IMG/VR virus record: IMGVR_UViG_3300046779_001955
Location: 10,116-74,115 of that record
Reading direction: 5' to 3' (one strand)
Source of the DNA: a virus
Taxonomy: Duplodnaviria > Heunggongvirae > Uroviricota > Caudoviricetes
Length of the DNA: 64,000 nt
Below the pieces are notes generated by a model that had not been told where the DNA came from, did no database searches, and saw only the letters and a program-made list of their open reading frames with translations. Numbering within the stretch: the stretch's first letter is position 1; each line of letters starts with the position of its first letter. The translations under genes and the position numbers were made by a program. This document shows positions 7,612 to 23,105 of this stretch, in pieces.

Positions 7612-7627
7612 GTAATCTCCGTGAAAA

Positions 7628-7666
7628 AGCCCAAGTACATTATAACATGTAACTTGGGCTTTGCAA
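7628..7666 (-). promoter_or_regulatory. hairpin (8-bp stem, 16-nt loop) plus T-run overlapping a TTGCAA-16-TATAAT promoter
   Basis: minus strand GCCCAAGT...ACTTGGGC TTTTT after lipoprotein gene; loop carries TATAAT; upstream of clpP2-like. Confidence 0.4.
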
Positions 7667-7679
7667 CTAGATTTGGTTA

Positions 7680-8273
7680 TTATTCAGCTGCGCGATTGGC
7701 GTTGGCATCCAATTCTTTGGTGACATCAGCAGCACGAATTTCGGTGGCTTTACGAGCACGAATTCCATCTTTACGTGCTTGTAATTTATTAGCATCGCCC
7801 ATGGGCAAAGCCACCAAAACATAACTACGGAAACGAGTACCCTCGGCAATGGTTCGAGTGTCTACGATCTCAACACCAGTTACATCAACCTGTGGACACA
7901 TTGAACGAATTGCAGTTTCACTGAGTTCGCTGCCACCGCTTTCATTGTCCATCATAAAGACTTTACTTTGCTGATCAACCTTGCCGCCTGCTGACATACA
8001 AATTTTGCCCATTGCCATGAGTTTGGCTTTGGTACGAGCCATCTCCATGTCACGACTTACTGAAGTGCCGTTTGCATAAACTGCACTGTCTGAACTAGGT
8101 ACTTTCTCCATCCATGCCGGAGCCTTGTCAATAGCACGTTCAGCATACTTAACCTGGCGCTCGCGTTCAGCATCAGCACGTTTTTCAAACTTGTCATTGG
8201 TTGTACTACAAGCTGACAAAGTTGCGGCAACTGCTGCAACAAAAACCAATCGATTCAACATTTTATACCTCAT
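7680..8273 (-). CDS. lipoprotein (LPP20-like?)
   Basis: signal peptide with lipobox LSAC; 197 aa. Confidence 0.7.
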   Translation of the reverse strand: MRYKMLNRLVFVAAVAATLSACSTTNDKFEKRADAERERQVKYAERAIDKAPAWMEKVPSSDSAVYANGTSVSRDMEMARTKAKLMAMGKICMSAGGKVDQQSKVFMMDNESGGSELSETAIRSMCPQVDVTGVEIVDTRTIAEGTRFRSYVLVALPMGDANKLQARKDGIRARKATEIRAADVTKELDANANRAAE

Positions 8274-8395
8274 TATTTAGAAGAAATCCAATCGCCAACA
8301 CGACCTAAGTCTTTGCCAGCACCACTAATTGTACCACCTATTGTGCCACAGGCTGCTAGGCTTGTAACTAATAGGGCCAAAACTACAATACGCAT
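8273..8395 (-). CDS. small entericidin-like lipoprotein (40 aa), absent from ORF track
   Basis: MRIVVLALLVTSLAACGTIGGTISGAGKDLGRVGDWISSK; lipobox LAAC; G-x-G-x-D-x-G-R/N pattern like EcnA/B; TAATG overlap with downstream gene. Confidence 0.55.
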   Translation of the reverse strand: MRIVVLALLVTSLAACGTIGGTISGAGKDLGRVGDWISSK

Positions 8396-8419
8396 AAGAC
8401 CTCCATTGTACACGATAAA

Positions 8420-8986
8420 TTAAAAACGGTCAACCACTACCCATTCATTGGCATTGAGTTCGCATACAACACCTTGATATTGGCGCAGATGATCTCGATC
8501 CCAAGCTGGTTCCAGGAACCAACGACATTGCACACCGTTGTGCCAAAAACGATCAGGATAATTTGGATGGGGTCTAAATTGACTAGACTTACCAATCATA
8601 CCCGGCGATGTTTTTTTAATCATGTCAGCATCGGGATTGTCTGAGCATATCATTACTGAATCAGTAACAATTTGTTTTTTGCTCACACGATCGCGTACAT
8701 CGCGTTCGGCTTGCTGCACAGCCTGCGCACACATTTCGGTGCTGGGACGATTGCCATCCCATGTAACTTCACCGTGAGCCGGATGCCACTCGTTATTGAT
8801 TCGAGCACGAAACTCCACTGTACATTTCTTGCCACCGTTGACATCAGGTACTACCGCACGTCTCAAGTCGGCTCGTTCTTGGATGGTTACCTGTGTTCGA
8901 CTCACTGTTTTATCTTGCAAAACACAGTCAGCAGCACTGGCAGAAAGTGCAACCACACTCAGCAATGTTAGATATTTTACGGACAT
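8420..8986 (-). CDS. secreted/periplasmic protein
   Basis: signal peptide (ALSASAADC); 188 aa; several Cys. Confidence 0.6.
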   Translation of the reverse strand: MSVKYLTLLSVVALSASAADCVLQDKTVSRTQVTIQERADLRRAVVPDVNGGKKCTVEFRARINNEWHPAHGEVTWDGNRPSTEMCAQAVQQAERDVRDRVSKKQIVTDSVMICSDNPDADMIKKTSPGMIGKSSQFRPHPNYPDRFWHNGVQCRWFLEPAWDRDHLRQYQGVVCELNANEWVVVDRF

Positions 8987-10396: not shown

Positions 10397-10663
10397 ATGG
10401 AACTTTTTATTTTATTGCTAGTGGTAATTGGAGCAGTTTGGTGGTTTACTTCGGTTGAGAACAAAGCAGAAGAATCGGGTCGTCATCCCTTGGATGGTAA
10501 TGTAACTAGACAAGAACCTGACTTAACCACAATACCTGATGGGATTGGTCATCAATCAATTACAGTTGCTCCGGTACTTACACAACAATTGGACGTACCT
10601 GCAACAGAATCAACTGCACCCAAAAAATCACGTAAACCTCGCGCTAAGAAATCAGCGGAGTAA
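10397..10663 (+). CDS. small membrane protein
   Basis: AAGGAG SD 7 nt upstream; N-terminal TM helix; basic C-terminus. Confidence 0.6.
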   Translation: MELFILLLVVIGAVWWFTSVENKAEESGRHPLDGNVTRQEPDLTTIPDGIGHQSITVAPVLTQQLDVPATESTAPKKSRKPRAKKSAE

Positions 10664-11674
10664 TTCTACAACTTGGTCTCGGGCAAGATTTTTGCCCTTG
10701 GCCTCACACTGTATATCCCACTGCTCTGCAAAGGTCAGAGCATATTCATTAACAGCCGAGTTCCAATAAAAGTCCGAGTGTGCTCGTAGCTTGCTCCGAG
10801 TGAAGCCTCTTGAAAGCAGTTGCTCAAGATTGGGTCTAGTACAGGGATCGTGATCCACCAAAAGATCTTCACGACTAACGCTGTAGTGAAGCACAGGGCG
10901 AACACCGCGCCAACTGTCCAAAACACGCTGCGCACGATCATCATCAGGAGTGATGTATTCTCCTGTTTTGACCCAGTGATGATGTATATCCAATGTAATT
11001 GGAACACGATGAATAACACCCAAAACAACATCAAGTCCATTTGTAATTTCATCATTCTCTATAGCGATTAGATTTCTAGCTTCGGGGGTCAATCTATCCA
11101 AAGTTTTTAGAAATTTGTCAGGCCCGCCTTTGCCTGACAAGTGTATGTTAATTTTAAATCCATGATCATGCCACTCAGCACCATAGCCCATCCATCGTGC
11201 AAGATCAACATGGTACTCAAACTCATCAATGCTGCGTTCAACAATATCATCGCTTTCACTTGCAAGAACACAGAACTGACCGGGATGGAAACTCAGACGA
11301 ACACCTAGTCTACGAGCAGCTTCGCCAACAGGTGCAAAAATTCGAGCACAATGATTTTGCACATCACTTTGCTGCCACCATTGTTGCCAGTCCTTTTCAG
11401 TGTAACCGTTGAGCATTTCTGAACCAAGACGAACCATGCGCTGAGTCTCAGGCAATGTGCCCACATGCTCTACCAGTGCTAATGCTGCTGCGGCATTATG
11501 GTTCATGATTTCAAACTGTCGTTGCTCGGCTTCGTCGCGATGCTCACGCAACCAGCGCATAGTAGTTGAACGTCCGTTCATGTGACGACTAGCCGACGTG
11601 GGTTTACGGCCAGCTACTTCTTCGGGATGATCTAGCCATTTGCAGCAAAAACCAATTTTAGTAGTGATAGGCAT
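10652..11674 (-). CDS. uvsE: UV damage endonuclease UvdE/UvsE
   Basis: SFHPGQF, NIHLSG, IENDE, DIHHHW blocks match the UvsE TIM-barrel family. Confidence 0.85.
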   Translation of the reverse strand: MPITTKIGFCCKWLDHPEEVAGRKPTSASRHMNGRSTTMRWLREHRDEAEQRQFEIMNHNAAAALALVEHVGTLPETQRMVRLGSEMLNGYTEKDWQQWWQQSDVQNHCARIFAPVGEAARRLGVRLSFHPGQFCVLASESDDIVERSIDEFEYHVDLARWMGYGAEWHDHGFKINIHLSGKGGPDKFLKTLDRLTPEARNLIAIENDEITNGLDVVLGVIHRVPITLDIHHHWVKTGEYITPDDDRAQRVLDSWRGVRPVLHYSVSREDLLVDHDPCTRPNLEQLLSRGFTRSKLRAHSDFYWNSAVNEYALTFAEQWDIQCEAKGKNLARDQVVELLR

Positions 11675-12098
11675 GAATTTTAGGTTTTACCTTTTCTTTA
11701 AGATATTGTAATTTTATACCACATTGTTGATAACCTTCGGCAATACCTAACACGTAACCCATTGACGGCGATCCAACAATGGGTCGTTGCATTTCGTAAA
11801 AGAAAAAATGCTCGTTGTCTTGACGCCAACGACGACGGTTATAGTATACTGGATAACCTTCGTATCGGTCAAGTGCTGCAATGTCCGAATCGGTTAGAAG
11901 CCAAAGAGCTCCGGGAACCACAGCACCGTGTTTTGGTACAATAGTAGCATGACTTCCAAATTCCAGTTCCCAACCTTTGAGATAAAACGATCGAACAAAT
12001 TGAGCGGTTGGGCACCGAAACGACATTTGGTTATGGTTCATGTTCGAGCCATAACCAAAATATAATTTTGGTAATTTATTAATAGATTTGAGTTTCAT
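11658..12098 (-). CDS. gamma-glutamyl cyclotransferase-like (AIG2/GGCT fold) protein
   Basis: YFGYGSNM motif near N-terminus. Confidence 0.65.
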   Translation of the reverse strand: MKLKSINKLPKLYFGYGSNMNHNQMSFRCPTAQFVRSFYLKGWELEFGSHATIVPKHGAVVPGALWLLTDSDIAALDRYEGYPVYYNRRRWRQDNEHFFFYEMQRPIVGSPSMGYVLGIAEGYQQCGIKLQYLKEKVKPKIHAYHY

Positions 12099-12128
12099 AT
12101 AGTCAAAAAAAAATCAACAACTTAGCAA

Positions 12129-12157
12129 GTATAAGTTATTGATTTTTTAAGGCCAAC
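12129..12157 (-). promoter_or_regulatory. candidate promoter TTGGCC-17-TATACT
   Basis: revcomp TTGGCCttaaaaaatcaataactTATACT. Confidence 0.45.
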
Positions 12158-12172: not shown

Positions 12173-13090
12173 TTACTTTTCGCGCCAAAGATCCAGGGTT
12201 GTACAGTGGAAACCTCCGCCCAGCGTTCGGCTGTGTGTAAGCGGAATTGGTATAGTGTGGATTCCTTTGGATCTTAGTATTTCAATAAGAACTGTTTGAA
12301 TACTGTCCACTATAACAAGTCCTGGACGTACCACTAACATGTTAAGACCAATCCATTTGCTGGCATAAGGATATTGGTAAAAGTCCCGCGGCACACAGTC
12401 AGTTATGTATACCCTTGTCCAATCGCGCAAACATTGCGGACAATTTTCTTCGTTGACACGTTCACCATTGAGTAACACCAGTCCTTCTTGTATTGGTACA
12501 ATAGTTGAATCAATGTGTACGCCTGAATAGAATCCGCAGGCTTCGATATTGATGTTGGGAAATTGCTCTCGTAACCATTGCATAGCAGGTACATTACCAC
12601 TTTGGCTAACTAGATAGAGCCAATTGTCGTTCATTCTACACACGTTAGCAGCATCTAGAATAAATCCCTGATCTCTAGGCATGTGTCGAACATTTTCAGC
12701 CATGTCAACAATATCTTGCACACATTCAATTTCTTGATCTCTACAAGGATACAGCATAGCTGGATCTACAATGGTATTACCTGCAACCAACAAACGATCA
12801 CGAGGACAATAATTGTACATACCTTGATGAGTGGCAAAGTCGCGATCGTCGGGGCGGTAAACTGCTACACCAAGATTGTATAATACATTGCACAAATGAT
12901 CTAATTCTCTGTTTGCTTCATCAATGATATTCTGCGGTACTGGGCCTGATGGAACTGGAGTTTCTTTCCATAGAGTACGTTTGCTTTCTTGCTGAAATAC
13001 CGGATCATGGCTAGGCCAATTTGCACCAGTGGCAGATCCAACAAGTATTGCTCTTAGCGGATCCCATTCATTAAAACTGTGTATTTTCAT
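12173..13090 (-). CDS. amidinotransferase-superfamily enzyme (AGAT/StrB-like) paralog 1
   Basis: N-terminal HSFNEWDPLRAILVGS and C-terminal GGGFHCTTLDL catalytic-Cys motif; start at MKIHSF (ATGA overlap with upstream gene). Confidence 0.7.
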   Translation of the reverse strand: MKIHSFNEWDPLRAILVGSATGANWPSHDPVFQQESKRTLWKETPVPSGPVPQNIIDEANRELDHLCNVLYNLGVAVYRPDDRDFATHQGMYNYCPRDRLLVAGNTIVDPAMLYPCRDQEIECVQDIVDMAENVRHMPRDQGFILDAANVCRMNDNWLYLVSQSGNVPAMQWLREQFPNINIEACGFYSGVHIDSTIVPIQEGLVLLNGERVNEENCPQCLRDWTRVYITDCVPRDFYQYPYASKWIGLNMLVVRPGLVIVDSIQTVLIEILRSKGIHTIPIPLTHSRTLGGGFHCTTLDLWREK

Positions 13091-13602
13091 ATGCCTGTAA
13101 TTTGTAATGTGTATCGTTCGGTACTGCCAATGTTGGCAGCAATATGAGGTAAATCGTTTTTCCAACAAACCCAGTCGCCAGCTCGCCATTGTACAATTGG
13201 GTTCCCATCAAGTTCTAAATAATGTCCCCGATCCCAGTCTTCTAAAAATACTATTGCCCGAGTAATGTCTTGATCTTGGTCTATGTTGTAAATTTCTCGA
13301 AATCTACTGTAAGTGTCCCGGTGCTCGGGTATAGTTGTGCCCGGCTCCATTCTATACACACTCCAGCTAAAGTGTTCAAAATAGAAAACTCCTCGAAAAA
13401 ACTTCATCCAGGGCGGCTCTGGATTGCGCATATCGTACATGTCACCAGTAAATTTGGTTTGTGTGTATCCAAGCTTTCTCCAGAGCTCTTGGGTAACAGG
13501 ATCGTTAAAAGGTTCGTTTTTATAATCTAACAATCGATGTTGATAACCCCACCATGGTGCAAGATGTCCTTGCGACCAATGATTAGTTTCTAGTATTGCC
13601 AT
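13087..13602 (-). CDS. cupin / 2OG-Fe(II) oxygenase-like protein
   Basis: H-x-D (EHRD) ... H (LPHIA) facial-triad spacing. Confidence 0.45.
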   Translation of the reverse strand: MAILETNHWSQGHLAPWWGYQHRLLDYKNEPFNDPVTQELWRKLGYTQTKFTGDMYDMRNPEPPWMKFFRGVFYFEHFSWSVYRMEPGTTIPEHRDTYSRFREIYNIDQDQDITRAIVFLEDWDRGHYLELDGNPIVQWRAGDWVCWKNDLPHIAANIGSTERYTLQITGI

Positions 13603-14833
13603 AGTGTATTATGGTCACACGATTTGTTTGTGTGTTTAGTTTGCGCCATGGGTCAACTACAACTGAGTTAGTGGGAATGTAACTATAATACTCATCGGCT
13701 TTGACATCCCCGGTGTATCCGTATGTAACTGCACGATTATGTGCCATCAATACTACCGAAGGTTCTGAGAGTTCGGTTACTACATCTATGGGATCATCGG
13801 CCAACGGATCCAAATACACAACCCTGCGACCTAGTTCCTGGATATAGAATCCAACTAGTGTAGAGTAAGATCCAATACAATAAGGTACATCAGGTTTATA
13901 TGCCTTACCATGAATAACAATCGGACTGTTACCTAGTTGATGTAGATCTGCTTGCTCTACTAAAAACTTTGCAAGATTTCGTGCTTGGATTTCGCGAGCA
14001 TGCATGATGGTATCAAACAGATCATAACCTATATCATATTCTTGTGCAAGCCAGCGCAAGGCAATGTTATCACGTGGATGGCATGCTCCAGCATCGCCCA
14101 TGCCTGCTGTCATGTACTTAGGTCCCATGATACGCATGGTACTACGAGCCAGGGCATTAGTTACTACGTCAACATTGATATTGCCAATCTTGAGTGCAAA
14201 GTCTTGAATCATGTTAGCAAGACCAACCTTGGCGCTGATGTATGTGTTATAAAAGATTTTAATAGCTTCACATTCGTCCCAGGTGCCAACTTCGTATCTA
14301 GGATCATTCTTCATAATACCCCGATACAATTCAATAAGTTCGCTGGCAACTCCTGTAACACTACCGTCTTCGGTGCCGATAATAACCATCTCTGGGTTAG
14401 CCATGTCCCACTTAACTGAACCCATAGCAATCAAGTATGGATTGTATAAGAATTGATGTTTCTTATCAAGCAATGTAATGAACTTACGACGTGTTGTCCC
14501 CGGGAGAACTGTGCTAATTAACACAACCTTTTTACTTGATTTGGCATGTTGGTTGATTTTAAGTATAGCATCAATCACAGCTTCATGTCCAAAATCTCTA
14601 GGCTCCATATGAGAACTAGGAATTGATCCATCATAACCTTCGGCATGCGGGGTAGGGACTGCAATAAAAATCCAATCACTGTGGTTGATCATCTCACCGA
14701 TGTCAGAATATACTTGTACAGTTTCACTTTGACGAGGGAAAATATCATATCCATTAGTTGGATACCTCTCAGCAAAAACTTCAGCACAGTCCAAACCTAA
14801 CTTACCTAAACCAATAAAACCTACTCTGGGCAT
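13583..14833 (-). CDS. nucleotide-sugar (UDP-glucose/GDP-mannose family) dehydrogenase
   Basis: VGFIGLGKLG Rossmann motif, GGACHPRD catalytic-Cys block; start at MPRVGF with AAAGGA SD. Confidence 0.8.
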   Translation of the reverse strand: MPRVGFIGLGKLGLDCAEVFAERYPTNGYDIFPRQSETVQVYSDIGEMINHSDWIFIAVPTPHAEGYDGSIPSSHMEPRDFGHEAVIDAILKINQHAKSSKKVVLISTVLPGTTRRKFITLLDKKHQFLYNPYLIAMGSVKWDMANPEMVIIGTEDGSVTGVASELIELYRGIMKNDPRYEVGTWDECEAIKIFYNTYISAKVGLANMIQDFALKIGNINVDVVTNALARSTMRIMGPKYMTAGMGDAGACHPRDNIALRWLAQEYDIGYDLFDTIMHAREIQARNLAKFLVEQADLHQLGNSPIVIHGKAYKPDVPYCIGSYSTLVGFYIQELGRRVVYLDPLADDPIDVVTELSEPSVVLMAHNRAVTYGYTGDVKADEYYSYIPTNSVVVDPWRKLNTQTNRVTIIHYGNTRN

Positions 14834-14897
14834 AAACAATCCTTTGTTGAAAACATTAATTATCAGTGAAAACTGATGGTCTATAAATAATTTTAAC

Positions 14898-15323
14898 ATG
14901 CGTTATCAAAATTTACAACTCCAACCTATATCTATTTCCTTTGAATCAAAACTTTCGGACAATGTAGACACTGAATTTTCTGTGGGTACTCGGTTTGCCT
15001 CAGCTAGCCAATTTGTCAAATTATTACCGGGCCTGACTGTATTCACTGATGTTGTTGAGCTTGGCAATCATGATCAACTGCGTATATTTGTAAAGAATAT
15101 AAAATACGGGGATTCAGTAAGAATTAAAGATATTGAAATTGGTAACGTTACTTTACAGCATTACATTTACCAAGGGTGCCAATATCAGGCTGCTGCCAAA
15201 GACTATTACAAACCTGGCACTGAATTTCATCTTGACGGAGTGTTTGAACTAGACATTACAATGCCCATATGGCGCTGGTTGCTGAATCACATTGAAAGAG
15301 AGATACGTGAAAACCGAACATAA
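14898..15323 (+). CDS. hypothetical protein
   Basis: 141-aa ORF on plus strand inside the enzyme island. Confidence 0.5.
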   Translation: MRYQNLQLQPISISFESKLSDNVDTEFSVGTRFASASQFVKLLPGLTVFTDVVELGNHDQLRIFVKNIKYGDSVRIKDIEIGNVTLQHYIYQGCQYQAAAKDYYKPGTEFHLDGVFELDITMPIWRWLLNHIEREIRENRT

Positions 15324-16074
15324 CTTGCCGGAAATTATCAAACAATTACACGACAACAATCAAGTTGAATTAGATTCTGTATTACACTGTGGTATTCCAT
15401 ACATGATGTTAGATTTACATGCACCGCGATTTTCTCGAGATCAAACTCAGAGTTGGATCAATCAGTGGTTTCATTCACAATCCACTGACCAAACTCCGGA
15501 AACAGAGTTTACAAAATTAACACATCGGTCATTTGAAATTGACAGTGAGCTCAACAAGGGTTGGAAAAGCCGTATTATATTTGGTCCAGCAGAATGGTGC
15601 GAGCATTGGCATCTTGGAACTCACGAAGATGAATATACATTAAGTATCAAGCATCGCAATGATTTTAATTTTGTTTGGCTGGTCAAAGAAAATCATCCAG
15701 TGCGCACATGGATCAATACAATGTTCACCGATGATGAATTACTCAATGTCACTGCTTGGGCGATGCCGCCTGGAGGATATTTAAATCCTCATCAAGACTC
15801 TACTACCAATCGTCACGGTATAAACAATCTTTATTGGGCTGTTCAATGGGATCCGGGTAATGAGTTTGGATTCTATCGTTTTGGAACCATACCTATCAAA
15901 GAAGGATCGGTGTGTCTGGTCAATAACTATTCTTATCCTCATTGGGTAGTCAACAACAGTAGTTCTGATCGCCTTGTATTAAGTATTGGTGCTGATCTAA
16001 ATAAAATTGAGCCTGACATTATTCGTAGTTGGCATCTGATGCATAGTCTCGGCCGGGGAAATAATCCTGCATAG
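15292..16074 (+). CDS. aspartyl/asparaginyl beta-hydroxylase-like cupin oxygenase
   Basis: NPHQDS (HxD) and YPHW (distal His); start codon uncertain (TTG). Confidence 0.5.
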   Translation: MKERYVKTEHNLPEIIKQLHDNNQVELDSVLHCGIPYMMLDLHAPRFSRDQTQSWINQWFHSQSTDQTPETEFTKLTHRSFEIDSELNKGWKSRIIFGPAEWCEHWHLGTHEDEYTLSIKHRNDFNFVWLVKENHPVRTWINTMFTDDELLNVTAWAMPPGGYLNPHQDSTTNRHGINNLYWAVQWDPGNEFGFYRFGTIPIKEGSVCLVNNYSYPHWVVNNSSSDRLVLSIGADLNKIEPDIIRSWHLMHSLGRGNNPA

Positions 16075-17281
16075 TACCTTTGCGACCTAGATCCAGCGTA
16101 TGACAGTGGGTACCAGCGTCCCAGAAGAACTGATGTCTACTGGGTATTACGTGACATGTAATGCCATAGCGTTCCATTGCACGTATGACATTGTCATCAT
16201 GTTGTGCGACCACAGCAGTCTTGGGATCAATCATTAGTATGTTCACAAAGAAACGTGTTTCCAATGCATTACCTGTCCAACTACGTAGATAACTATCAAC
16301 AAAATCTGTGAGTGCAGCCGTGCGTTCTTGTCCTCGTAAATACCAACGTCCAAATCCCCACTGTCTGATCTTTCGCCATCCTTCGCTTTCAACAAGATAA
16401 CTGTTGTCACTACCATAAATTATCTCCCATCCGGGAAAACTCTTTTCATAGTTTGTTCGATCATGGTAGCTGACAATAAGGCCCGGAGCAACCGGACAAA
16501 ATGTGCCATCACTGTGTCCTCCACAATCAATAATGTTAGATCTATATTGAGTTCCAGCAATTTGCTGACTTATGGCAGTGAGCTCAGGAGTTATTTCATC
16601 ATAACTTTCGGTACTGAAATACAGATCTCTCCCAAGTCTAGTGACCATACTACCGTTGACCAAACGCCAGTGATCACTGATGTCAACTATCTGGTTTCCT
16701 TGTTCTATAACCCATTCATAGATACCATTGTAAACTCCACCGGGATTAGTTGATCTTGGTTCCATGGTATACCAAGTTTCATTGCGCCAGTGCAGATATT
16801 GACATTGATTTATTAGAATTTCTTGGATATGTTTGGGGAGTTCTTTGAAACTACTTTCGCGTGAGCAATCTGGCCATCCAGGTTGACGAACGTCTTGATA
16901 AAACTGGCCCCAGCCTGGCCATTCTTCATAATGATCAGCGTAGACCATTGAATCTTGTGTGCGATTTATATAAAATAAATCTCCAATCATTACATGTGCG
17001 TCTCTAGGACACACCGGCGGCCTTGGGTACTCTTTAACTGTTTTGGATTCTATTGATTCTGCAATTTTATGCCAGTCACTGACATTGGGCCTAAATACTC
17101 TTACTCCACGTGATTCAATAAATTGTGCTAACGCATCAAGATCTTCCTGCGTTTCAACAACTATTTTTTCCAATAAGTTTCGCAGTTTGGTATCTTGTAC
17201 GTAGGAGAAAAATTCAGGTGGCCAACAACTCCCGACTACACAAGCTTGAAGTGGATCCCAATGTTGGTAAATTTGTAGCAT
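16019..17281 (-). CDS. amidinotransferase-superfamily enzyme paralog 2
   Basis: YQHWDPLQACVVGS and GTHCHTLDLGR motifs. Confidence 0.7.
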   Translation of the reverse strand: MLQIYQHWDPLQACVVGSCWPPEFFSYVQDTKLRNLLEKIVVETQEDLDALAQFIESRGVRVFRPNVSDWHKIAESIESKTVKEYPRPPVCPRDAHVMIGDLFYINRTQDSMVYADHYEEWPGWGQFYQDVRQPGWPDCSRESSFKELPKHIQEILINQCQYLHWRNETWYTMEPRSTNPGGVYNGIYEWVIEQGNQIVDISDHWRLVNGSMVTRLGRDLYFSTESYDEITPELTAISQQIAGTQYRSNIIDCGGHSDGTFCPVAPGLIVSYHDRTNYEKSFPGWEIIYGSDNSYLVESEGWRKIRQWGFGRWYLRGQERTAALTDFVDSYLRSWTGNALETRFFVNILMIDPKTAVVAQHDDNVIRAMERYGITCHVIPSRHQFFWDAGTHCHTLDLGRKGTMQDYFPGRDYASDANYE

Positions 17282-17283
17282 AG

Positions 17284-18537
17284 GTGATTATGTCAATTCC
17301 GTTAGAACAACTGTATGATTTTTATGACAGCATTATCTCTGATAACCTAATAATTTATCAGTTCTGGCCACATGGATCTAAAAACATCTTGGATTTAAAA
17401 CCTATACAAGCATACAGTTTGGAACAAGTGGTCACAGACCCAATTATGATTTGCCATGACCAAGAACCATTGCATTTTGATTTTTACACTTCAGACAAAA
17501 TATCTGGTCTATGGGCTCACGGAGCTGGCTCTGACTGGCCACCAGAGTTTGCAGAGTTTTGGGAAAGTCGTAATCTTAGATCTGCCTGTGAAGTAAACAT
17601 ACACGATCAATGCCTGTTGTTGCACAGTGAACAACGTAGTAAAAATTTAAACCAATATCAACAATCAGGCTTTGTTCCTGTATATGTCTGGAGTCACGGA
17701 ATTATTGCGAGAGACTGGTATAGATATGCAGAGATTGACCCGAGATTACAAACCCAGCACCAGTCAACTTATGATTTTAACATATATGCTCGAGCTTGGA
17801 CTGGTACAAGAGAATATAGACTGATGCTGTTGGCATTGACAGCGGATATATCGCATCATTGTCGTGTGACATTCGCAGCCAATGATGGTGGATCATATCA
17901 AAAATATCAACCCACTAATCCAAAGTTTTATATCAATCATTTTGATCTTGTAAATCTCTACAGTGACAGTTCGATTAGCAGTGACTCAAGTGCAACCTAC
18001 AATTGGCAGCATTATCAACAGTGTGCAATTGATGTTGTCACTGAAACTTTATTTGATGATGATCGAATGCACTTAACCGAAAAAGTGTTACGCCCCATTG
18101 CCTGTGGCAAACCATTTATCATAGCCGGTCCTTGGGGTAGCCTTGAATATCTAAGAACATATGGATTTGAAACGTTTGAGAGTTTGATAGATGAAACCTA
18201 TGACACTATAGAGAATCCGTATCAACGTCTACGTGCATTGACAGATCTAATGCGTCAGATTGCGAGAATGTCTGGTCACCACAAAAAACAACTGTATCAT
18301 GCCATGAACAACATAGCTCAAAGAAACCGCAGACACTTTTTCAGCACAGAATTTTTTCAACAGTTAATTGTTGAATACAGTGTTAATGCTAGAGATGGTC
18401 TTAGGCAAGTGTACGAAAGTTGTCAAGGCACTGAGTGGAACTCGCACATGTCTGTGTACAATCAATATCCCAACTTGCACAGTGAAATCTTAGATTTACA
18501 ATCAGTGGTGCTAGATAGACTCCACACGACAAGATAG
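17284..18537 (+). CDS. hypothetical 417-aa protein
   Basis: long ORF divergent from amidinotransferase 2, start codons 3 nt apart. Confidence 0.6.
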   Translation: MIMSIPLEQLYDFYDSIISDNLIIYQFWPHGSKNILDLKPIQAYSLEQVVTDPIMICHDQEPLHFDFYTSDKISGLWAHGAGSDWPPEFAEFWESRNLRSACEVNIHDQCLLLHSEQRSKNLNQYQQSGFVPVYVWSHGIIARDWYRYAEIDPRLQTQHQSTYDFNIYARAWTGTREYRLMLLALTADISHHCRVTFAANDGGSYQKYQPTNPKFYINHFDLVNLYSDSSISSDSSATYNWQHYQQCAIDVVTETLFDDDRMHLTEKVLRPIACGKPFIIAGPWGSLEYLRTYGFETFESLIDETYDTIENPYQRLRALTDLMRQIARMSGHHKKQLYHAMNNIAQRNRRHFFSTEFFQQLIVEYSVNARDGLRQVYESCQGTEWNSHMSVYNQYPNLHSEILDLQSVVLDRLHTTR

Positions 18538-20959: not shown

Positions 20960-21742
20960 ATGCGTATTTCATTTGATTTAATTTCAGACTTACATATCGA
21001 AACCTGGGATAGTTTTGATTGGACTGGCCAAGCCACAAGTCCATTCTGTATTGTGGCCGGGGACGTTGCCAAAGATAGAACCATAGTTTTAGAAACCTTG
21101 GAACACCTGAACCAATGCTATCGTATGGTATTTTACATTGATGGCAACGATGAACACAAGTATTATATGGACGATGTTGGCCGAAGCTATCGAGAGTTAG
21201 CTGCCTCTATTGATGCCCTGGACAATGTTGTGTATCTACAAGACAATGTTGTTATCATGGACGGCATAGCTGTTATTGGCACCAATGGCTGGTGGGGGTT
21301 TGACTTTGATCCCAATATTGATATAAATCAAACCAAGTATTGGTGGGAAGAACAACAAGTTGATCCAACTAATGCTCGAATAGTTGAAGATCTCAGTAGA
21401 ACTGATGCTGCTTTTTTAATCAAAAGCATTCAAAGATTGCAGCGTCACCAAGATGTACGTCACATTGTTGTGGTAACTCACACCGTTCCAAGATATGATC
21501 TCATAAGCCATGATCTTCAACTTGAAGGAACCTATAGATTCAACTGTATGGGCAACAGTTTGATGGAACTGGCTCAACATGCTGATACAGAATCAAAACT
21601 ACACACTTGGTGTTTTGGACATTATCATAACTCAGTAGATAGATTCGTCAACGGTGTTAGATTTATCAACAACTGCCGCGGGCGTGGAGACACCGAGCAT
21701 AGTAACCCGGTGTATTATCCTAGACGTATTGAATTAGATTAG
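20960..21742 (+). CDS. calcineurin-like metallophosphoesterase
   Basis: DLHIE, GDV, GNDEH, GHYH metal-ligand motifs. Confidence 0.8.
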   Translation: MRISFDLISDLHIETWDSFDWTGQATSPFCIVAGDVAKDRTIVLETLEHLNQCYRMVFYIDGNDEHKYYMDDVGRSYRELAASIDALDNVVYLQDNVVIMDGIAVIGTNGWWGFDFDPNIDINQTKYWWEEQQVDPTNARIVEDLSRTDAAFLIKSIQRLQRHQDVRHIVVVTHTVPRYDLISHDLQLEGTYRFNCMGNSLMELAQHADTESKLHTWCFGHYHNSVDRFVNGVRFINNCRGRGDTEHSNPVYYPRRIELD

Positions 21743-22050
21743 GCTTCGGCTTCAATTTTAACTTGAAGCGGGTAGTTTTGAGTACGTGCGCTCACTGTGA
21801 CTTCAATGCCTTTTTGTTCGGCAAGTTCGTAAGGCAACACTGCCACAGTGGCCGAACCGGACTCGTGTATATCCATAGTGATATCATGAGCGGTAGTGGG
21901 AGTATAATCAAAGAACTCAACTAAGCTACCAATAACAAATTCCATGCTGGTTTGATTGTCATTGAGATAGATCACTTTGTACATTGGTGGTTCTTTGATG
22001 GCTGTTTGTAGTTTTGTACGTGATTCAACGAGTGCGTCAGATTGTGCCAT
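21739..22050 (-). CDS. clpS: ATP-dependent Clp protease adaptor ClpS
   Basis: PPMYKVIYLNDNQTSMEFVI matches ClpS core; ATG 22050 with AAGGAA SD preferred over TTG 22080. Confidence 0.8.
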   Translation of the reverse strand: MAQSDALVESRTKLQTAIKEPPMYKVIYLNDNQTSMEFVIGSLVEFFDYTPTTAHDITMDIHESGSATVAVLPYELAEQKGIEVTVSARTQNYPLQVKIEAEA

Positions 22051-22069
22051 TTTAGATTCCTTGATTTCT

Positions 22070-22088
22070 GGGAGGGACAAGCCCTCCC
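22070..22088. promoter_or_regulatory. GC hairpin GGGAGGG-acaag-CCCTCCC between hsp20 and clpS
   Basis: 7-bp GC stem; weak T-run so function unclear. Confidence 0.3.
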
Positions 22089-22104
22089 ATGTATTTACTT
22101 TAGA

Positions 22105-22545
22105 TTAGTTTGAGTAAGTGATTGCAATGCTCTTAGGCTTAATAACTTCAGGTAACTGACGCTCAAACCTTACAGTTAAAATACCATCGCGGCATACAGC
22201 ATCAACAACTTCAACATACTCACCCATGGTCCAGCTACGCATGAATTTACGATTACTGATTCCTTGATGCTTGTAGCTGTGTCCTTCGGGAAGCGCAGTA
22301 TCGCGCTTTTCACCAGTGATGATAACATCACCATCACGGGTAGCAACATCAATTTCACCTTGCGCAAAGCCAGCCACAGCAAGTTGTAGTTCAAAGGTAT
22401 TTTCGCCGGTTTCTACGATGTTGTAGGGAGGGTAGTTGTTATTGGCAGCATGATCAATTTGATTCATAATTCGATCAAATACGCGATCTACACCAATTGC
22501 ATTGCGGTAAAACGGGGTTAAATCAAAAGCAGTTACTTTAGTCAT
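22105..22545 (-). CDS. small heat-shock protein Hsp20 (IbpA-like)
   Basis: FDLTPFYRNAIGVDRVF ... GYPPYNI ... AVAGFA alpha-crystallin blocks; GAGGAG SD. Confidence 0.9.
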   Translation of the reverse strand: MTKVTAFDLTPFYRNAIGVDRVFDRIMNQIDHAANNNYPPYNIVETGENTFELQLAVAGFAQGEIDVATRDGDVIITGEKRDTALPEGHSYKHQGISNRKFMRSWTMGEYVEVVDAVCRDGILTVRFERQLPEVIKPKSIAITYSN

Positions 22546-22608
22546 GTCATTCTCCTCGTAAGCAAGTTGACTATTGTAGCCCGACCATCGGCACTACAAT
22601 ACTATTTA

Positions 22609-22884
22609 TTATACACTAGATCCAAAATTTGTTTTATTATTTAGGTCAACTACAAAGCGCCATCTTCGTGCGGTGTAACTTCGTGGGTTCCAAGTCACAG
22701 TAAAAAAGGTATAAAGATTATCACTCTCAAAACAGACTCTATGAAATAATTTGACTGTTTTGGATGTGTAAGGAATTCCATACTTCTCGCTCCAGGCCTT
22801 GAGTTCGGTTTCAATTATGTTTAGGGCAATTGCAACAGAACGCATGTGCTGGTCACGGGTGGGCAATGCGAACTCAATGTACAT
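22609..22884 (-). CDS. hypothetical protein
   Basis: ORF overlapping S21 stop; start uncertain. Confidence 0.35.
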   Translation of the reverse strand: MYIEFALPTRDQHMRSVAIALNIIETELKAWSEKYGIPYTSKTVKLFHRVCFESDNLYTFFTVTWNPRSYTARRWRFVVDLNNKTNFGSSV

Positions 22885-23105
22885 CAGTAGAATTGACGAG
22901 GTAATTGTTGGCTGTTGAGGTATTTCTTCCAACGAGCACGAGCAGAATTGCGCTTGATTTTTCTAGCTGTGGTAGGTTTAGTGTACTGTTGACGCTCCCG
23001 CAGATTTATCAACAGTTGCGATTCTGCAACTTTTTTCTTGAGTTTACGCAACGCTTTGTCAACATTGCCATCTTGACCCACATAAACTACTAAACCTCGA
23101 CGCAC
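22884..23105 (-). CDS. rpsU: ribosomal protein S21
   Basis: 73 aa, VDKALRKLKKKV ... RERQQYTKPT ... RKIKRNSARAR pattern. Confidence 0.85.
   Translation of the reverse strand: MRRGLVVYVGQDGNVDKALRKLKKKVAESQLLINLRERQQYTKPTTARKIKRNSARARWKKYLNSQQLPRQFY

What the first reader, a model, noticed from the sequence alone, without database searches (positions are those of the whole stretch)
12173..18537. Accessory enzyme island with two amidinotransferase-superfamily paralogs, two cupin oxygenases and a nucleotide-sugar dehydrogenase
Seven genes on both strands make up the island: an AGAT/StrB-like enzyme (GGGFHCTTLDL), a cupin, a UDP-sugar-type dehydrogenase (GGACHPRD), an unknown, an Asp-beta-hydroxylase-like cupin, a second amidinotransferase-like enzyme (GTHCHTLDLGR) and a 417-aa unknown. 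The island is flanked by GGCT-like and UvdE genes. Amidinotransferases are unusual in phages. Together with a uronic-acid-forming dehydrogenase and hydroxylases this looks like a tailoring pathway. The target could be a guanidino- or amidino-modified sugar, a virion glycan or a nucleotide; it is undetermined. The amidinotransferase 2 and 417-aa genes start divergently 3 nt apart, leaving no intergenic promoter space.
Basis: partly seen in the sequence, partly recalled or inferred. Interest (0 to 1): 0.8.

Follow-up and report, generated by a model that had tools for sequence, protein, structure and literature searches.

The report
Phage sugar-tailoring and glycosylation gene cassette
A large uncultured phage carries a conserved, phage-only set of enzymes (sugar dehydrogenase, new glycosyltransferase, small oxygenase, streptomycin-type amidinotransferase) that most likely build and attach an unusual charged sugar to an unknown target.

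Summary

The region is not a sporadic accessory island. AT1, cupin A, the dehydrogenase and the GT form a fixed syntenic block in a large lineage of uncultured, often more than 300 kb, phages. All 64 GT loci with enough flank carry cupin A and AT1, and 59 also carry the dehydrogenase. Only ORF4-6 and the GGCT gene are clade-specific.

Fusion proteins tie the parts together: cupinA-GT, dehydrogenase-GT and DegT-cupinA. Independent phage lineages also repeat the amidinotransferase + 2OG oxygenase + glycosyltransferase association.

The best reading is a sugar-tailoring and glycosylation cassette producing a uronic or guanidino glycoconjugate. The acceptor (virion or envelope glycan, DNA, or a small molecule) is unresolved. 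No member has been characterised.

The parts
12173..13090 (-). AT1: StrB1-type L-arginine amidinotransferase (305 aa). Key residues in 305-aa numbering: D98, D146, H192, D194, C296.
   Evidence: phmmer against PDB gives StrB1 1bwd E=3.4e-64, AGAT 4e-30, HsvA 9e-26, SxtG 2.5e-23 and arginine deiminase 0.41. Identity to StrB1 is 46% over 270 aligned residues, and the motif positions were located. The 305-aa start is confirmed by P0241. The ATGA overlap with the upstream cupin was read directly.
13087..13602 (-). Cupin A: small (171 aa) Fe(II)/2-oxoglutarate oxygenase of a phage-restricted family. It is the invariant partner of AT1.
   Evidence: H94, D96, H153 and R163 are invariant or nearly invariant. 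Pfam Asp_Arg_Hydrox scores 20.4 bits, below the 22.6-bit cutoff, but 20 of 49 family members match it, best E=7e-6. The family has 571 cluster representatives, some fused to ORF7-type GTs or to a DegT-like domain. Only 7 hits were found in 185,579 species genomes, all on phage contigs binned into MAGs.
13583..14833 (-). Nucleotide-sugar 6-dehydrogenase of the UDPG/GDP-Man dehydrogenase family, in a distinct phage clade (416 aa from M23).
   Evidence: Pfam UDPG_MGDP_dh_N scores 56.4 bits and the central domain 53.2 bits, both above cutoff. PHROG 9148 gives E=4e-84. PDB UDP-glucose dehydrogenases give E about 1e-14. TIGR03026 scores 132 bits, below its 190-bit cutoff. It is 55% identical to Synechococcus phage Bellamy gp227 and 45% to Pelagibacter phage HTVC008M gp162. 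The clade alignment shows invariant GxCHPRDN, GKAYKP..GS and HYGNTR.
14834..14897 (.). 64-nt divergent intergenic region between the dehydrogenase operon and ORF4.
   Evidence: Sequence read. Two sigma-70-like matches on the minus strand lie at 14918-14890 and 14887-14859, upstream of the M23 start. These are consensus matches only.
14898..15323 (+). ORF4: 141-aa protein of unknown function, present only in the window's closest relatives.
   Evidence: No hit in Pfam, PHROGs or NCBIfam. Homologs of 28-32% identity occur only in L030 and L034, at the same position. It is unrelated to the 144-aa neighbours of AT2 homologs in T4-like phages.
15292..16074 (+). Cupin B: Fe(II)/2OG oxygenase, Asp/Arg-hydroxylase-like (about 255-260 aa; start at 15292 or 15307).
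   Evidence: Pfam Asp_Arg_Hydrox scores 21.2 bits, below cutoff. H167, D169, H217 and R227 are invariant in 4 homologs. The L026 homolog scores 31.7 bits, above cutoff. It aligns weakly but in register with cupin A over the catalytic core (hhalign E=7e-4).
16019..17281 (-). AT2: divergent amidinotransferase-fold enzyme (420 aa) with two large insertions and a Cys393-His256-Asn209 triad.
17282..17289 (.). 8-nt gap between the divergent ORF6 and ORF7 start codons (AGGTGATT). It contains a Shine-Dalgarno-like AGGTGA for ORF7.
   Evidence: Sequence read. In relatives, equally tight head-to-head starts occur between the GT and the dehydrogenase.
17290..18537 (+). ORF7: GT-B fold glycosyltransferase of a new, Pfam-less, phage-borne family (415 aa).
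12108..12148 (-). AT-rich hairpin (17-nt arms, 94% complementary, 7-nt loop) flanked by A/T runs, lying between AT1 and the GGCT gene. It may be a terminator or attenuator marking the end of the core operon.
   Evidence: Inverted repeat I12. The consensus terminator scan did not call it.
10652..12098 (-). Flanking context: GGACT/AIG2-like cyclotransferase (11658-12098) and UvdE endonuclease (10652-11674). These are syntenic neighbours and probably not part of the pathway.
   Evidence: Pfam and PHROG hits. UvdE follows AT1 in nearly all relatives, but it is absent from the two independent lineages that also pair an AT1-like gene with a 2OG oxygenase and GTs, S-SCSM2R and L026. The GGCT gene occurs only in the closest relatives.

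Best explanation
The region is a phage-encoded sugar-tailoring and glycosylation cassette.

The conserved core consists of ORF3, ORF2 and ORF1, transcribed as one tightly packed operon, and ORF7, which is divergently transcribed. I infer that the core works as follows:
1. The dehydrogenase (ORF3) oxidises C6 of a nucleotide hexose to the uronic acid, using NAD+ and its conserved catalytic Cys.
2. The StrB1-type amidinotransferase (ORF1) takes the amidino group from L-arginine onto its active-site Cys296 and passes it to a primary amine of a small sugar-like or cyclitol-like precursor, producing a guanidino group.
3. The small Fe/2OG oxygenase (ORF2) hydroxylates or oxidises either that precursor or the acceptor.
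4. The new GT-B enzyme (ORF7) transfers the sugar onto the acceptor.

In this phage clade a second cassette has been inserted between the dehydrogenase and the GT. It comprises ORF4, a second 2OG oxygenase (ORF5) and a divergent amidinotransferase (ORF6, Cys-His-Asn triad), and presumably adds a second amidination/oxidation step or a variant of the first.

I favour a non-DNA glycoconjugate as the end product, such as a virion protein or cell-envelope glycan carrying acidic and guanidino groups.

Shown here: the fold and family of each enzyme, the integrity of the catalytic residues, the gene order and its conservation, and the existence of fusion proteins. Inferred: the order of steps, the substrates and the acceptor.
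For: Enzyme identities.

Operon packing: the cupin stop and AT1 start overlap as ATGA, and ORF3 and ORF2 overlap by 20 nt.

Conservation: every AT1 locus of the lineage has cupin A, and most have the dehydrogenase and the GT. All 64 GT-family loci with at least 3.5 kb of upstream sequence carry cupin A and AT1, and 59 also carry the dehydrogenase.

Fusion proteins:
- About 520-595-aa proteins consist of cupin A followed by an ORF7-family GT (hhalign probability 98.8%, E=6e-17). One 1018-aa protein appears to have the order GT-cupinA-GT, read by eye from its sequence.
- A 788-aa phage protein combines a UDPG/GDP-Man dehydrogenase with an ORF7-like GT fold (Foldseek E=4.8e-13).
- P0506 combines a DegT/DnrJ/EryC1-type sugar aminotransferase domain with cupin A (Pfam E=1e-15). 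Its N-terminal domain is 43.5% identical to the short DegT-like ORF305 of the S-SCSM2R cluster.

Independent recurrences of AT1-like + 2OG oxygenase + GTs:
- Cyanophage S-SCSM2R ORF301-310 has GTs, a DegT-like gene, a radical SAM enzyme, a cupinA-like gene and an 'inosamine amidinotransferase'.
- Jumbo contig L026 has an ORF7-like GT directly upstream of an AT1-like gene, plus a cupinB-like gene and two radical SAM enzymes.

Close homologs of the dehydrogenase in Bellamy and HTVC008M sit in clusters with GTs, a carbamoyltransferase, a NadE-like amidotransferase and a methyltransferase.

Evidence favouring a non-DNA acceptor:
- The GT, cupin and AT2 families are uniformly acidic, with median pI of 5.4-5.9.
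- The 64-kb window has no DNA methyltransferase, thymidylate-synthase-like hydroxymethylase or TET/JBP enzyme.
- Cupin A is fused to a sugar aminotransferase domain.
- In S-SCSM2R the AT2-like protein and a 2OG oxygenase were detected in purified virions (PMC12801897).
- AT2 homologs lie within the structural gene block of T4-like phages.
Against: - No substrate, product or acceptor has been demonstrated for any member of any of the four families.
- The island has no aminotransferase to make the amine that AT1 would need, so a host or distant phage gene must supply it.
- Synteny within one phage lineage does not alone prove a shared pathway. UvdE and the metallophosphoesterase are equally syntenic.
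- The dehydrogenase is absent from some relatives and the GT from others, so the four are not strictly interdependent.
- The dehydrogenase-GT fusion rests on a Foldseek match and a UniProt name. I could not inspect the sequence.
- The best structural matches of the GT are the two T4 DNA glucosyltransferases, which points toward the DNA rival.
- Net charge is a crude argument against DNA binding.
- The virion-proteome observation concerns a distant AT2 relative (27% identity over 42% of the query).
Confidence: 0.45

Rival explanations
1. DNA hypermodification. Cupin A hydroxylates a base in phage DNA (for example thymine or 5-methylcytosine). The ORF7 GT-B enzyme then glycosylates the new hydroxyl using the uronic acid made by ORF3. 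AT1 and AT2 decorate the appended group with amidino groups. The result would be a bulky zwitterionic modification that blocks restriction enzymes and CRISPR nucleases.
For: - Characterised phage gene clusters pair a 2OG dioxygenase with GT-A or GT-B enzymes that resemble T4 beta-GT. These place hexose, HexNAc, heptose, Kdo and hexuronic acid on 5hmC (preprint 10.1101/2023.12.21.572611).
- Phage thymine dioxygenases are known (PMC13229309, listed).
- CupinA-GT fusions fit a hydroxylate-then-glycosylate logic.
- The module sits beside UvdE and among replication, repair and nucleotide genes, not structural genes.
- The cupin A family is phage-restricted.
Against: - Cupin A is not a TET/JBP (5mYOX) enzyme by sequence. 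Its only consistent affinity is Asp_Arg_Hydrox.
- The window has no methyltransferase or hydroxymethylase.
- The GT and cupin families are acidic throughout.
- Cupin A also occurs fused to a sugar aminotransferase domain, which implies chemistry at the sugar level.
- By my own knowledge of the family, all characterised AGAT/StrB1-family enzymes act on small molecules.
Confidence: 0.2
2. A soluble small-molecule product. The cassette would make a guanidino pseudo-saccharide or aminoglycoside-like metabolite, following streptomycin-type logic: an amino-cyclitol or amino-sugar phosphate is amidinated by AT1, oxidised, and glycosylated by the GT. The compound would act on the host, on competing phages or on neighbouring cells.
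For: - AT1 is 46% identical to StrB1, the scyllo-inosamine-4-phosphate amidinotransferase of streptomycin biosynthesis, and far closer to it than to any other solved amidinotransferase.
- The DegT/DnrJ/EryC1/StrS aminotransferase family, fused to cupin A in P0506 and present in the S-SCSM2R cluster, includes the aminocyclitol aminotransferases (family membership from the Pfam name).
- The N-terminal (acceptor) domain of the GT has several invariant Arg, Trp and His residues within an acidic protein. I interpret this as suited to an anionic small acceptor.
- The authors of the S-SCSM2R paper also read their genes as 'antibiotic synthesis genes' (PMC12801897).
Against: - The island has no inositol dehydrogenase, kinase, phosphatase or exporter.
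- No complete phage-encoded secondary-metabolite pathway of this kind has been demonstrated.
- A lytic phage has little time to benefit from a diffusible product.
- The cyanophage clusters contain many GTs, which is more typical of oligosaccharide assembly.
Confidence: 0.15
3. No common pathway. The genes would be independent auxiliary metabolic genes held together only by lineage synteny. The amidinotransferases would rewire arginine, guanidino or polyamine metabolism (guanidinoacetate, homoarginine or amidinated polyamines for DNA condensation). The dehydrogenase would simply boost UDP-glucuronate, and the cupins would hydroxylate unrelated targets.
For: - The whole neighbourhood, from ClpX to UvdE, is syntenic in relatives, so adjacency alone is weak evidence.
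- The dehydrogenase or the GT is missing in some relatives.
- HsvA, a polyamine amidinotransferase, is the top PDB sequence hit for AT2.
- Metagenomic surveys list viral amidinotransferases simply as amino-acid-metabolism AMGs (PMC8226683; PMC11360552).
Against: - Three kinds of fusion protein physically join cupin A, the GT, the dehydrogenase and a sugar aminotransferase.
- The cupin and AT1 are translationally coupled through the ATGA overlap.
- The AT + 2OG oxygenase + GT association recurs in two unrelated phage lineages with otherwise different neighbours.
Confidence: 0.1
4. Direct protein post-translational modification. The cupins would hydroxylate Lys, Asp, Asn or Arg side chains of virion or host proteins. 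The GT would glycosylate the hydroxylated residue, as in collagen-type Hyl glycosylation. The amidinotransferases would convert lysine side chains to homoarginine.
For: - The Pfam affinity of both cupins is to the protein Asp/Asn beta-hydroxylase family.
- Hydroxylase-GT fusions recall LH3 and mimivirus L230 (from my own knowledge).
- An AT2-like protein and a 2OG oxygenase were found in S-SCSM2R virions (PMC12801897).
- AT2 homologs lie in T4-like structural modules.
- In most of the AT2 family, the Arg that I recall as binding the substrate alpha-carboxylate in AGAT (Arg322) is absent.
Against: - To my knowledge, no AGAT/StrB1-family enzyme is known to act on proteins.
- AT1 keeps the full small-molecule active-site signature of StrB1.
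- No collagen-like G-X-Y repeats are encoded in the window.
- This reading leaves no role for the dehydrogenase beyond supplying the donor sugar.
Confidence: 0.08

Closest known systems
StrB1, L-arginine:scyllo-inosamine-4-phosphate amidinotransferase of streptomycin biosynthesis (PDB 1BWD), and the wider AGAT/StrB1 family (AGAT, HsvA, SxtG)
   Different: The genes are phage-borne and have no other streptomycin-pathway genes beside them. Their partners are a 2OG oxygenase, a sugar dehydrogenase and a GT. ORF6 has Asn in place of the triad Asp, and it carries two insertions of roughly 95 and 40 residues, one with a conserved W-P-[DE]-C motif. The acceptor substrates are unknown.
Phage 5hmC glycosylation gene clusters: C5-methyltransferase + TET-like 5mYOX dioxygenase + GT-A/GT-B glycosyltransferases (Pyle et al. 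2023 preprint, 10.1101/2023.12.21.572611; Burke et al. 2021, PMC8256090)
   Same: Both are phage-specific pairings of an Fe/2OG dioxygenase with a GT-B enzyme whose closest solved structure is T4 beta-glucosyltransferase. Both include sugar-nucleotide tailoring genes next to the GT. Sugar acids, including hexuronic acid, are among the known products.
   Different: The oxygenase here is a 171-aa Asp_Arg_Hydrox-like cupin, not a TET/JBP enzyme. No methyltransferase or hydroxymethylase lies nearby. The GT family is acidic. Amidinotransferases are not mentioned in that paper: the term has 0 occurrences.
Glycan-type gene clusters of T4-like cyanophages and pelagiphages: Bellamy gp220-228, HTVC008M gp156-164, and S-SCSM2R ORF260-270 and ORF301-310
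   Same: The dehydrogenase belongs to the same clade (55% and 45% identity). In S-SCSM2R the same cupinA-like + AT1-like gene pair (29% and 34% identity) occurs, along with an AT2-like + 2OG oxygenase pair, among glycosyltransferases.
   Different: Those clusters use other GT families (GT2, GT25 and others; the adjacent GT ORF307 is not ORF7-like). They combine the dehydrogenase with NadE-like, carbamoyl- and methyl-transferases in place of an amidinotransferase. None has been functionally characterised.
Bifunctional hydroxylase-glycosyltransferases (human LH3/PLOD3, mimivirus L230) and the base-J pathway (JBP + JGT); comparison recalled from my own knowledge, not tested here
   Same: A 2OG oxygenase creates a hydroxyl that a physically linked glycosyltransferase then glycosylates. 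The cupinA-GT fusion proteins have this architecture.
   Different: No sequence relationship to those enzymes was detected. No collagen-like substrate is encoded in the window. The direction and substrate of the hydroxylation are unknown.
Bacterial 2,3-diamino-uronic acid O-antigen pathway (WbpA dehydrogenase, WbpB oxidase, WbpE DegT-type aminotransferase, then N-modification including acetamidino formation); recalled from my own knowledge
   Same: It combines a UDPG_MGDP_dh-family 6-dehydrogenase, an oxidation step, a DegT-family aminotransferase and conversion of the new amine to an amidine-type group on a uronic acid sugar.
   Different: The oxidation step there depends on NAD, not Fe/2OG. 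The amidine there is an acetamidino group made by a PP-loop amidotransferase, not a guanidino group made by an arginine amidinotransferase. No orthology was shown.

Membership tests
AGAT/StrB1 amidinotransferases (pentein/GME superfamily), tested for ORF1 | Significant full-length similarity to characterised amidinotransferases, closer than to the hydrolase branches (ADI, DDAH, PAD) | tested here: met
   StrB1 E=3.4e-64 and AGAT 4e-30, against arginine deiminase 0.41. Identity to StrB1 is 46%.
AGAT/StrB1 amidinotransferases, tested for ORF1 | Catalytic Cys-His-Asp triad and two guanidinium-binding Asp residues (AGAT C407/H303/D254 and D170/D305; StrB1 C332/H227/D179; residue numbers partly from my own knowledge) | tested here: met
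   C296, H192, D146, D98 and D194 align with the StrB1 and AGAT residues in the HMMER alignments. Positions were located.
AGAT/StrB1 amidinotransferases, tested for ORF1 and ORF6 | Arginine-dependent amidino transfer to an amine acceptor through a covalent Cys-amidino intermediate | not testable with these tools
   This requires an enzyme assay.
AGAT/StrB1 amidinotransferases, tested for ORF6 | Pentein fold closest to amidinotransferases | tested here: met
AGAT/StrB1 amidinotransferases, tested for ORF6 | Cys-His-Asp catalytic triad | tested here: not met
   Cys393 and His256 are invariant, but the Asp position is Asn209. It is Asn in most of the 26 family members aligned. A Cys-His-Asn triad could still be catalytic, as in papain (my own knowledge). 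ORF6 should therefore be called amidinotransferase-like, not a proven amidinotransferase.
UDP-glucose/GDP-mannose dehydrogenase family, tested for ORF3 | N-terminal NAD-binding Rossmann domain with GxGxxG, and the central helical domain | tested here: met
   PF03721 scores 56.4 bits and PF00984 53.2 bits, both above cutoff. GLGKLG lies at the N-terminus.
UDP-glucose/GDP-mannose dehydrogenase family, tested for ORF3 | Catalytic Cys in the G-x-C-[FLH]-P-[KR]-D motif | tested here: met
   GACHPRD aligns with GSCFPKD of 3vtf. It is invariant in the phage clade.
UDP-glucose/GDP-mannose dehydrogenase family, tested for ORF3 | Canonical C-terminal nucleotide-binding domain (PF03720) with the FKxxTDDxRxS motif, and assignment to a substrate-specific equivalog | tested here: inconclusive
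   PF03720 was not reported. The PDB alignment does extend through this region, but AFKPNTDDVRES is replaced by AYKPDVPYCIGS, a change that is invariant in the clade. All NCBIfam equivalogs fall far below their cutoffs, and TIGR03026 scores 132 against 190 bits. The nucleotide-sugar substrate cannot be assigned.
Fe(II)/2-oxoglutarate oxygenases, Asp_Arg_Hydrox (PF05118), tested for ORF2 and ORF5 | HxD/E...H facial triad and a basic residue for the 2OG C5 carboxylate on a cupin/DSBH core | tested here: met
   In ORF2, H94, D96, H153 and R163 are invariant or nearly invariant. In ORF5, H167, D169, H217 and R227 are invariant.
Fe(II)/2-oxoglutarate oxygenases, Asp_Arg_Hydrox (PF05118), tested for ORF2 and ORF5 | Score above the Pfam gathering threshold | tested here: not met
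   The scores are 20.4 and 21.2 bits against a cutoff of 22.6. Relatives do better: 20 of 49 cupin A members match, best E=7e-6, and the L026 cupinB-like protein scores 31.7 bits. No solved structure is reachable by sequence. The fold of cupin A could not be modelled under the tool's input rules.
GT-B glycosyltransferases, tested for ORF7 | Two Rossmann-like domains with an interdomain cleft, and structural similarity to solved GT-B enzymes | tested here: met
T4-type DNA glucosyltransferases, tested for ORF7 | Specific relationship to T4 beta-GT or alpha-GT beyond the shared GT-B fold, a DNA-binding groove, and a base-flipping mechanism | tested here: inconclusive
CAZy GT10-like fucosyltransferases (TEK motif), tested for ORF7 | Detectable sequence-profile similarity to GT10 enzymes | tested here: not met

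The most novel reading that the evidence does not exclude
The cassette writes a previously unknown hypermodification. In this reading a phage-specific mini-dioxygenase (cupin A) and a new GT-B family attach a uronic-acid sugar to phage DNA (or to a virion component). StrB1-type amidinotransferases then convert amines on it to guanidinium groups. The result would be the first guanidino-glycan modification of a viral genome or particle and the first biological role for amidinotransferases in viruses.
Probability: 0.2. Interest if true: 0.9.

Novelty: new variant of a known kind. Interest (0 to 1): 0.66.

Why it matters
Phage-encoded glycosylation is an active field, both for DNA (glucosyl-hmC, arabinosyl-hmC and the 5hmC glycans reported in 2023) and for virions. 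It bears on evasion of restriction enzymes and CRISPR, on immune recognition, and on enzyme discovery.

This module would add three uncharacterised, essentially phage-restricted enzyme families: a 171-aa 2OG oxygenase, a Pfam-less GT-B family with thousands of members, and a divergent Cys-His-Asn amidinotransferase. It would also add a chemistry, arginine-derived amidination, that has no demonstrated role in any virus.

The system is abundant in uncultured jumbo phages and recurs in a cultured cyanophage (S-SCSM2R), so it can be tested experimentally. The natural cupin-GT fusion proteins offer single-polypeptide entry points for biochemistry.

The analysis also corrects the usual metagenomic annotation of these genes as 'glycine amidinotransferase / creatine biosynthesis' AMGs.

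Tried and rejected
- Nucleotide search of the region against 50,697 phage records found no match. The phage has no close cultured relative.
- ORF7 by sequence gave nothing: no Pfam, PHROG, NCBIfam or PDB hit, and no tblastn hit in phages. Only structure prediction identified it.
- The GT10 'TEK motif' idea was recalled from memory and is not supported by the profile search.
- AFDB50 Foldseek was unavailable.
The second structure job was therefore used on AT2.
- Cupin profiles against PDB sequences gave only sub-threshold hits: AtsK at E=0.03 and an unrelated phi29 late-gene activator.
- ORF4 is not related to the 144-145-aa neighbours of AT2 homologs in T4-like phages, which themselves have only a weak ATE_C hit.
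- The 167-aa neighbour of those AT2 homologs is not a cupin A.
- The 421-425-aa and 184-244-aa genes that some relatives insert after AT1 gave no hit anywhere.
- The GT next to the S-SCSM2R cupin-AT pair is not ORF7-like.
- No collagen-like repeats were found as candidate substrates.
- No tRNA, Rfam family or island-bounding repeats were found.
- The sigma-70 promoter scan was uninformative for the tight divergent junction.
- Bacterial origin or context for cupin A was rejected, because all 7 'genome' hits are phage contigs binned into MAGs.
- UvdE and GGCT as pathway members were rejected, because they are absent from the independent lineages that repeat the AT + oxygenase + GT association.

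Full report
**What is in the sequence**

The window is a fragment of a large phage genome. It encodes ribonucleotide reductase, an ATP-dependent DNA ligase, a DnaB-like helicase, a DNA polymerase, a primase-like Toprim protein, ClpP (two copies), ClpX, ClpS, HSP20 and ribosomal protein S21. It has no nucleotide-level relative among 50,697 phage records.

The seven ORFs of the finding are all present. Homologs fix the true starts:
- ORF1 is 12173-13090, 305 aa, identical to database protein P0241.
- ORF3 most likely starts at 14833, directly before its GxGxxG motif.
- ORF7 starts at ATG 17290, 415 aa, identical to P0001.

ORF3, ORF2 and ORF1 are packed as an operon on the minus strand. ORF3 and ORF2 overlap by 20 nt. 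The ORF2 stop and the ORF1 start overlap as ATGA. ORF6 and ORF7 start head-to-head 8 nt apart. ORF5 and ORF6 converge and overlap by 56 nt, in C-terminal tails that are not conserved in homologs.

**Identity of each gene**

ORF1 (AT1) is a bona fide member of the amidinotransferase branch of the pentein superfamily.
- Its E-values are 3.4e-64 to StrB1, 4e-30 to AGAT, 9e-26 to HsvA and 2.5e-23 to SxtG, but only 0.4 to arginine deiminase.
- It is 46% identical to StrB1 over 270 residues.
- The nucleophile Cys296, His192, the triad Asp146 and the two guanidinium-binding Asp residues (D98, D194) are all conserved.

ORF6 (AT2) is a divergent paralog.
- It matches HsvA at 3e-13 and StrB1 at 1e-11.
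- In an alignment of 26 family members, Cys393, His256, Asp94 and Asp258 are invariant. The triad Asp is replaced by Asn209 in most members.
- The family also carries two large insertions, one with a conserved W-P-[DE]-C motif.
- I therefore call it amidinotransferase-like. A Cys-His-Asn triad can be catalytic, as in papain (my own knowledge), but canonical membership fails on this point.

ORF3 contains the N-terminal and central domains of the UDP-glucose/GDP-mannose dehydrogenase family above Pfam thresholds, and it has the catalytic Cys.
- It belongs to a distinct phage clade, shared with Synechococcus phage Bellamy (55% identity) and Pelagibacter phage HTVC008M (45%).
- In this clade the canonical C-terminal FKxxTDDxRxS motif is replaced by an invariant GKAYKP..GS, and the protein ends in an invariant HYGNTR.
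- No substrate-specific NCBIfam model is approached, so the nucleotide sugar cannot be named.

ORF2 (cupin A, 171 aa) and ORF5 (cupin B) have intact HxD...H...R motifs. They score just below the Pfam Asp_Arg_Hydrox threshold, while many of their relatives score above it or match significantly.

ORF4 remains unknown.

**It is a conserved module and not an accessory island**

Thirty viral contigs recovered with AT1, eight recovered with ORF7 and eighty more recovered with the ORF7 family profile all show the same block. Many are 200-365 kb long. The order is ClpX, ClpS, metallophosphoesterase, a 119-aa gene, the GT on one strand, then the dehydrogenase, cupin A, AT1 and UvdE on the other.

All 64 GT loci with enough upstream sequence have cupin A and AT1, and 59 also have the dehydrogenase.

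In most relatives the GT and dehydrogenase start codons abut head-to-head, within about 0-10 nt. In the window's own clade, ORF4, ORF5 and ORF6 have been inserted at exactly this junction, and the tight head-to-head arrangement is kept, now with ORF6. The GGCT gene has been inserted between AT1 and UvdE.

In other relatives one or two AT2 paralogs lie beyond UvdE. Some relatives lack the dehydrogenase, and others lack the GT at this locus.

The GC content of the region does not stand out from the rest of the window, and no bounding repeats were found.

A profile scan of one genome for each of 185,579 bacterial and archaeal species found cupin A only on seven MAG contigs. Those long enough to show flanking genes carry this same phage block, so the family appears restricted to phages.

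**Evidence that the genes work together**

Three kinds of natural fusion protein exist.
- Among 571 cupin A cluster representatives, several are the N-terminal domain of proteins of about 520-595 aa. Their C-terminal part is an ORF7-family GT (hhalign probability 98.8%, E=6e-17). One 1018-aa protein appears, by eye, to have the order GT-cupinA-GT.
- A 788-aa phage protein annotated as a UDP-glucose/GDP-mannose dehydrogenase matches the ORF7 fold over 350 alignment columns (Foldseek E=4.8e-13).
- P0506 joins a DegT/DnrJ/EryC1-type sugar aminotransferase domain to cupin A. That domain is 43.5% identical to the short DegT-like ORF305 of the cyanophage S-SCSM2R cluster.

The association also recurs independently.
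- S-SCSM2R is the only cultured phage with a cupin A homolog. That gene sits immediately upstream of an 'inosamine amidinotransferase' (34% identical to AT1), amid several glycosyltransferases, the DegT-like gene and a radical SAM enzyme.
- S-SCSM2R also has an AT2-like gene followed by 2OG oxygenases, next to KdsA and KdsB.
- A 364-kb jumbo contig (L026) places a distant ORF7-family GT (hhalign probability 90%) directly upstream of an AT1-like gene, together with a cupinB-like oxygenase and two radical SAM enzymes.

**Most likely mechanism**

I read the core as a sugar-tailoring and glycosylation cassette. The dehydrogenase makes an NDP-hexuronic acid. AT1 uses L-arginine to turn an amine on a small sugar-like or cyclitol-like precursor into a guanidino group. 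Cupin A hydroxylates or oxidises the precursor or the acceptor. The ORF7 GT makes the glycosidic bond. The ORF4-ORF6 insertion adds a second oxygenase/amidinotransferase pair.

The enzyme families, the catalytic residues, the gene order and the fusions are shown. The substrates, the order of steps and the acceptor are inferred.

**The acceptor is the main open question**

A DNA target is attractive for three reasons.
- The best structural matches of the GT are the T4 DNA glucosyltransferases.
- Characterised phage clusters couple a 2OG dioxygenase to T4-beta-GT-like GT-B enzymes that add glycans, including hexuronic acid, to 5hmC (10.1101/2023.12.21.572611).
- The module lies among replication and repair genes.

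Several observations count against a DNA target.
- Cupin A is not a TET/JBP enzyme.
- No methyltransferase or hydroxymethylase is present in the 64-kb window.
- The GT and cupin families are uniformly acidic, with pI of roughly 5.1-6.7.
- Cupin A is fused to a sugar aminotransferase domain.
- By my own knowledge, all characterised enzymes of the AGAT/StrB1 family act on small molecules.

Some evidence hints at a virion association. In S-SCSM2R the AT2-like protein and a 2OG oxygenase were found in purified virions (PMC12801897). AT2 homologs of about 40% identity sit inside the structural gene block of T4-like phages, between a baseplate gene and gp46/47.

I therefore favour a non-DNA glycoconjugate, with confidence of about 0.45. 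The rivals are DNA hypermodification (0.2), a soluble guanidino-glycoside metabolite (0.15), unrelated AMGs held together by synteny (0.1) and direct protein side-chain modification (0.08).

**Comparison with known systems, and novelty**

The parts belong to known superfamilies, and phage glycosylation cassettes are known. The combination with arginine amidinotransferases is not. No paper found describes a function for any viral amidinotransferase. They appear only as annotations: 'possible glycine amidinotransferase' in Campylobacter phage records, 'antibiotic synthesis gene' in S-SCSM2R, and a KEGG AMG table entry.

The ORF7 GT family and the cupin A family have no curated model.

I classify the finding as a new variant of a known kind. 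There is a real chance, about 0.2, that it encodes a new type of hypermodification.

**Limits**

- Only 64 kb of the genome and ±6-10 kb around homologs were visible.
- AFDB50 was unavailable.
- Cupin A could not be modelled.
- The dehydrogenase-GT fusion could not be inspected at sequence level.
- The host is unknown. The only hints are that related contigs were binned with MAGs of several taxa, including Haliscomenobacter (two contigs), Terrimicrobiaceae, Legionella and Pacearchaeota, which is weak evidence.

Noticed in passing
window 17281/17290; relatives e.g. L005 8267-8268, L044 8281-8284, L062 6000-6001: The GT gene always starts head-to-head with its neighbour, with start codons abutting or within about 0-10 nt. 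The neighbour is the dehydrogenase in most relatives and ORF6 in this clade. More than 50 loci show this. Each promoter and 5' UTR must therefore lie inside the other gene, which suggests leaderless or mutually antisense transcription. When ORF4-6 were inserted, the arrangement was preserved.
   Followed up: partly
L046 7655-8797; L047 8001-9137: AT2 homologs of about 40% identity occur in T4-like phages inside the structural module, between a T4_baseplate gene and the gp46/47 recombination nuclease genes. Beside them lie a DUF6614 protein and a 144-145-aa protein with a weak hit to the arginyl-tRNA-protein transferase C-terminal domain (E=0.006 and 0.04). That would be another arginine-related enzyme, if the hit is real.
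   Followed up: partly
window 2658-8986 and 21739-24304: The phage encodes a proteostasis set: two ClpP paralogs (4867-5511, 7045-7611), ClpX (23105-24304) and ClpS (21739-22080). HSP20 and ribosomal protein S21 genes were called on L042, a contig of the same phage. A radical SAM enzyme lies at 2658-3719.
   Followed up: no
L048-L054 (GTDB genome contigs): Contigs of this phage lineage are binned into MAGs assigned to Haliscomenobacter, Terrimicrobiaceae, Bacteroidetes, Legionella, Bdellovibrionales and even Pacearchaeota. This is either bin contamination or a hint to hosts. The Pacearchaeota contig carries a cupin A gene plus three ORF7-like GT fragments.
   Followed up: partly
window 12108-12148: An AT-rich perfect-looking hairpin (17-nt arms) flanked by A and T runs lies in the 74-nt gap between AT1 and the clade-specific GGCT gene. 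It may be a bidirectional terminator or a scar of the GGCT insertion.
   Followed up: no
window 50169-50864: Another 2OG-Fe(II) oxygenase (PF13759, E=2e-18) lies elsewhere in the window, next to a Laminin_G_3/ConA-like protein (51410-52144) and a large DUF6267 protein (52144-54195). These may be tail-fibre-associated.
   Followed up: no
phage records MH319720, MH319724, MH319727 (Marine virus AG-345-D19): A single-cell-derived marine virus carries three separate AT2-family paralogs of 25-30% identity, which indicates expansion of this divergent amidinotransferase family in some phages.
   Followed up: no
L040 (Bellamy gp225-227), L041 (HTVC008M gp161-162), hit H26 (Sf-FS3): In Kyanoviridae the same dehydrogenase clade is repeatedly adjacent to a NadE-like 'NAD synthetase'. 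This could amidate the uronic acid carboxylate to a uronamide and not make NAD. That would be a parallel nitrogen-adding decoration to the amidinotransferase seen here.
   Followed up: no
L005 10908-12736; L044 10979-12981; L038 5518-7352: Several jumbo relatives insert a conserved pair of unknown genes (about 421-426 aa, plus 184-244 aa) between AT1 and UvdE. L044 and L038 also carry extra ORF7-like GT paralogs nearby. No family or structure hit could be obtained for the 425-aa protein.
   Followed up: partly
protein P0441 (263 aa): One cupin A representative is fused to a LysR-type HTH and substrate-binding fragment. This is probably an assembly or gene-calling chimera and not a real regulator fusion.
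   Followed up: no
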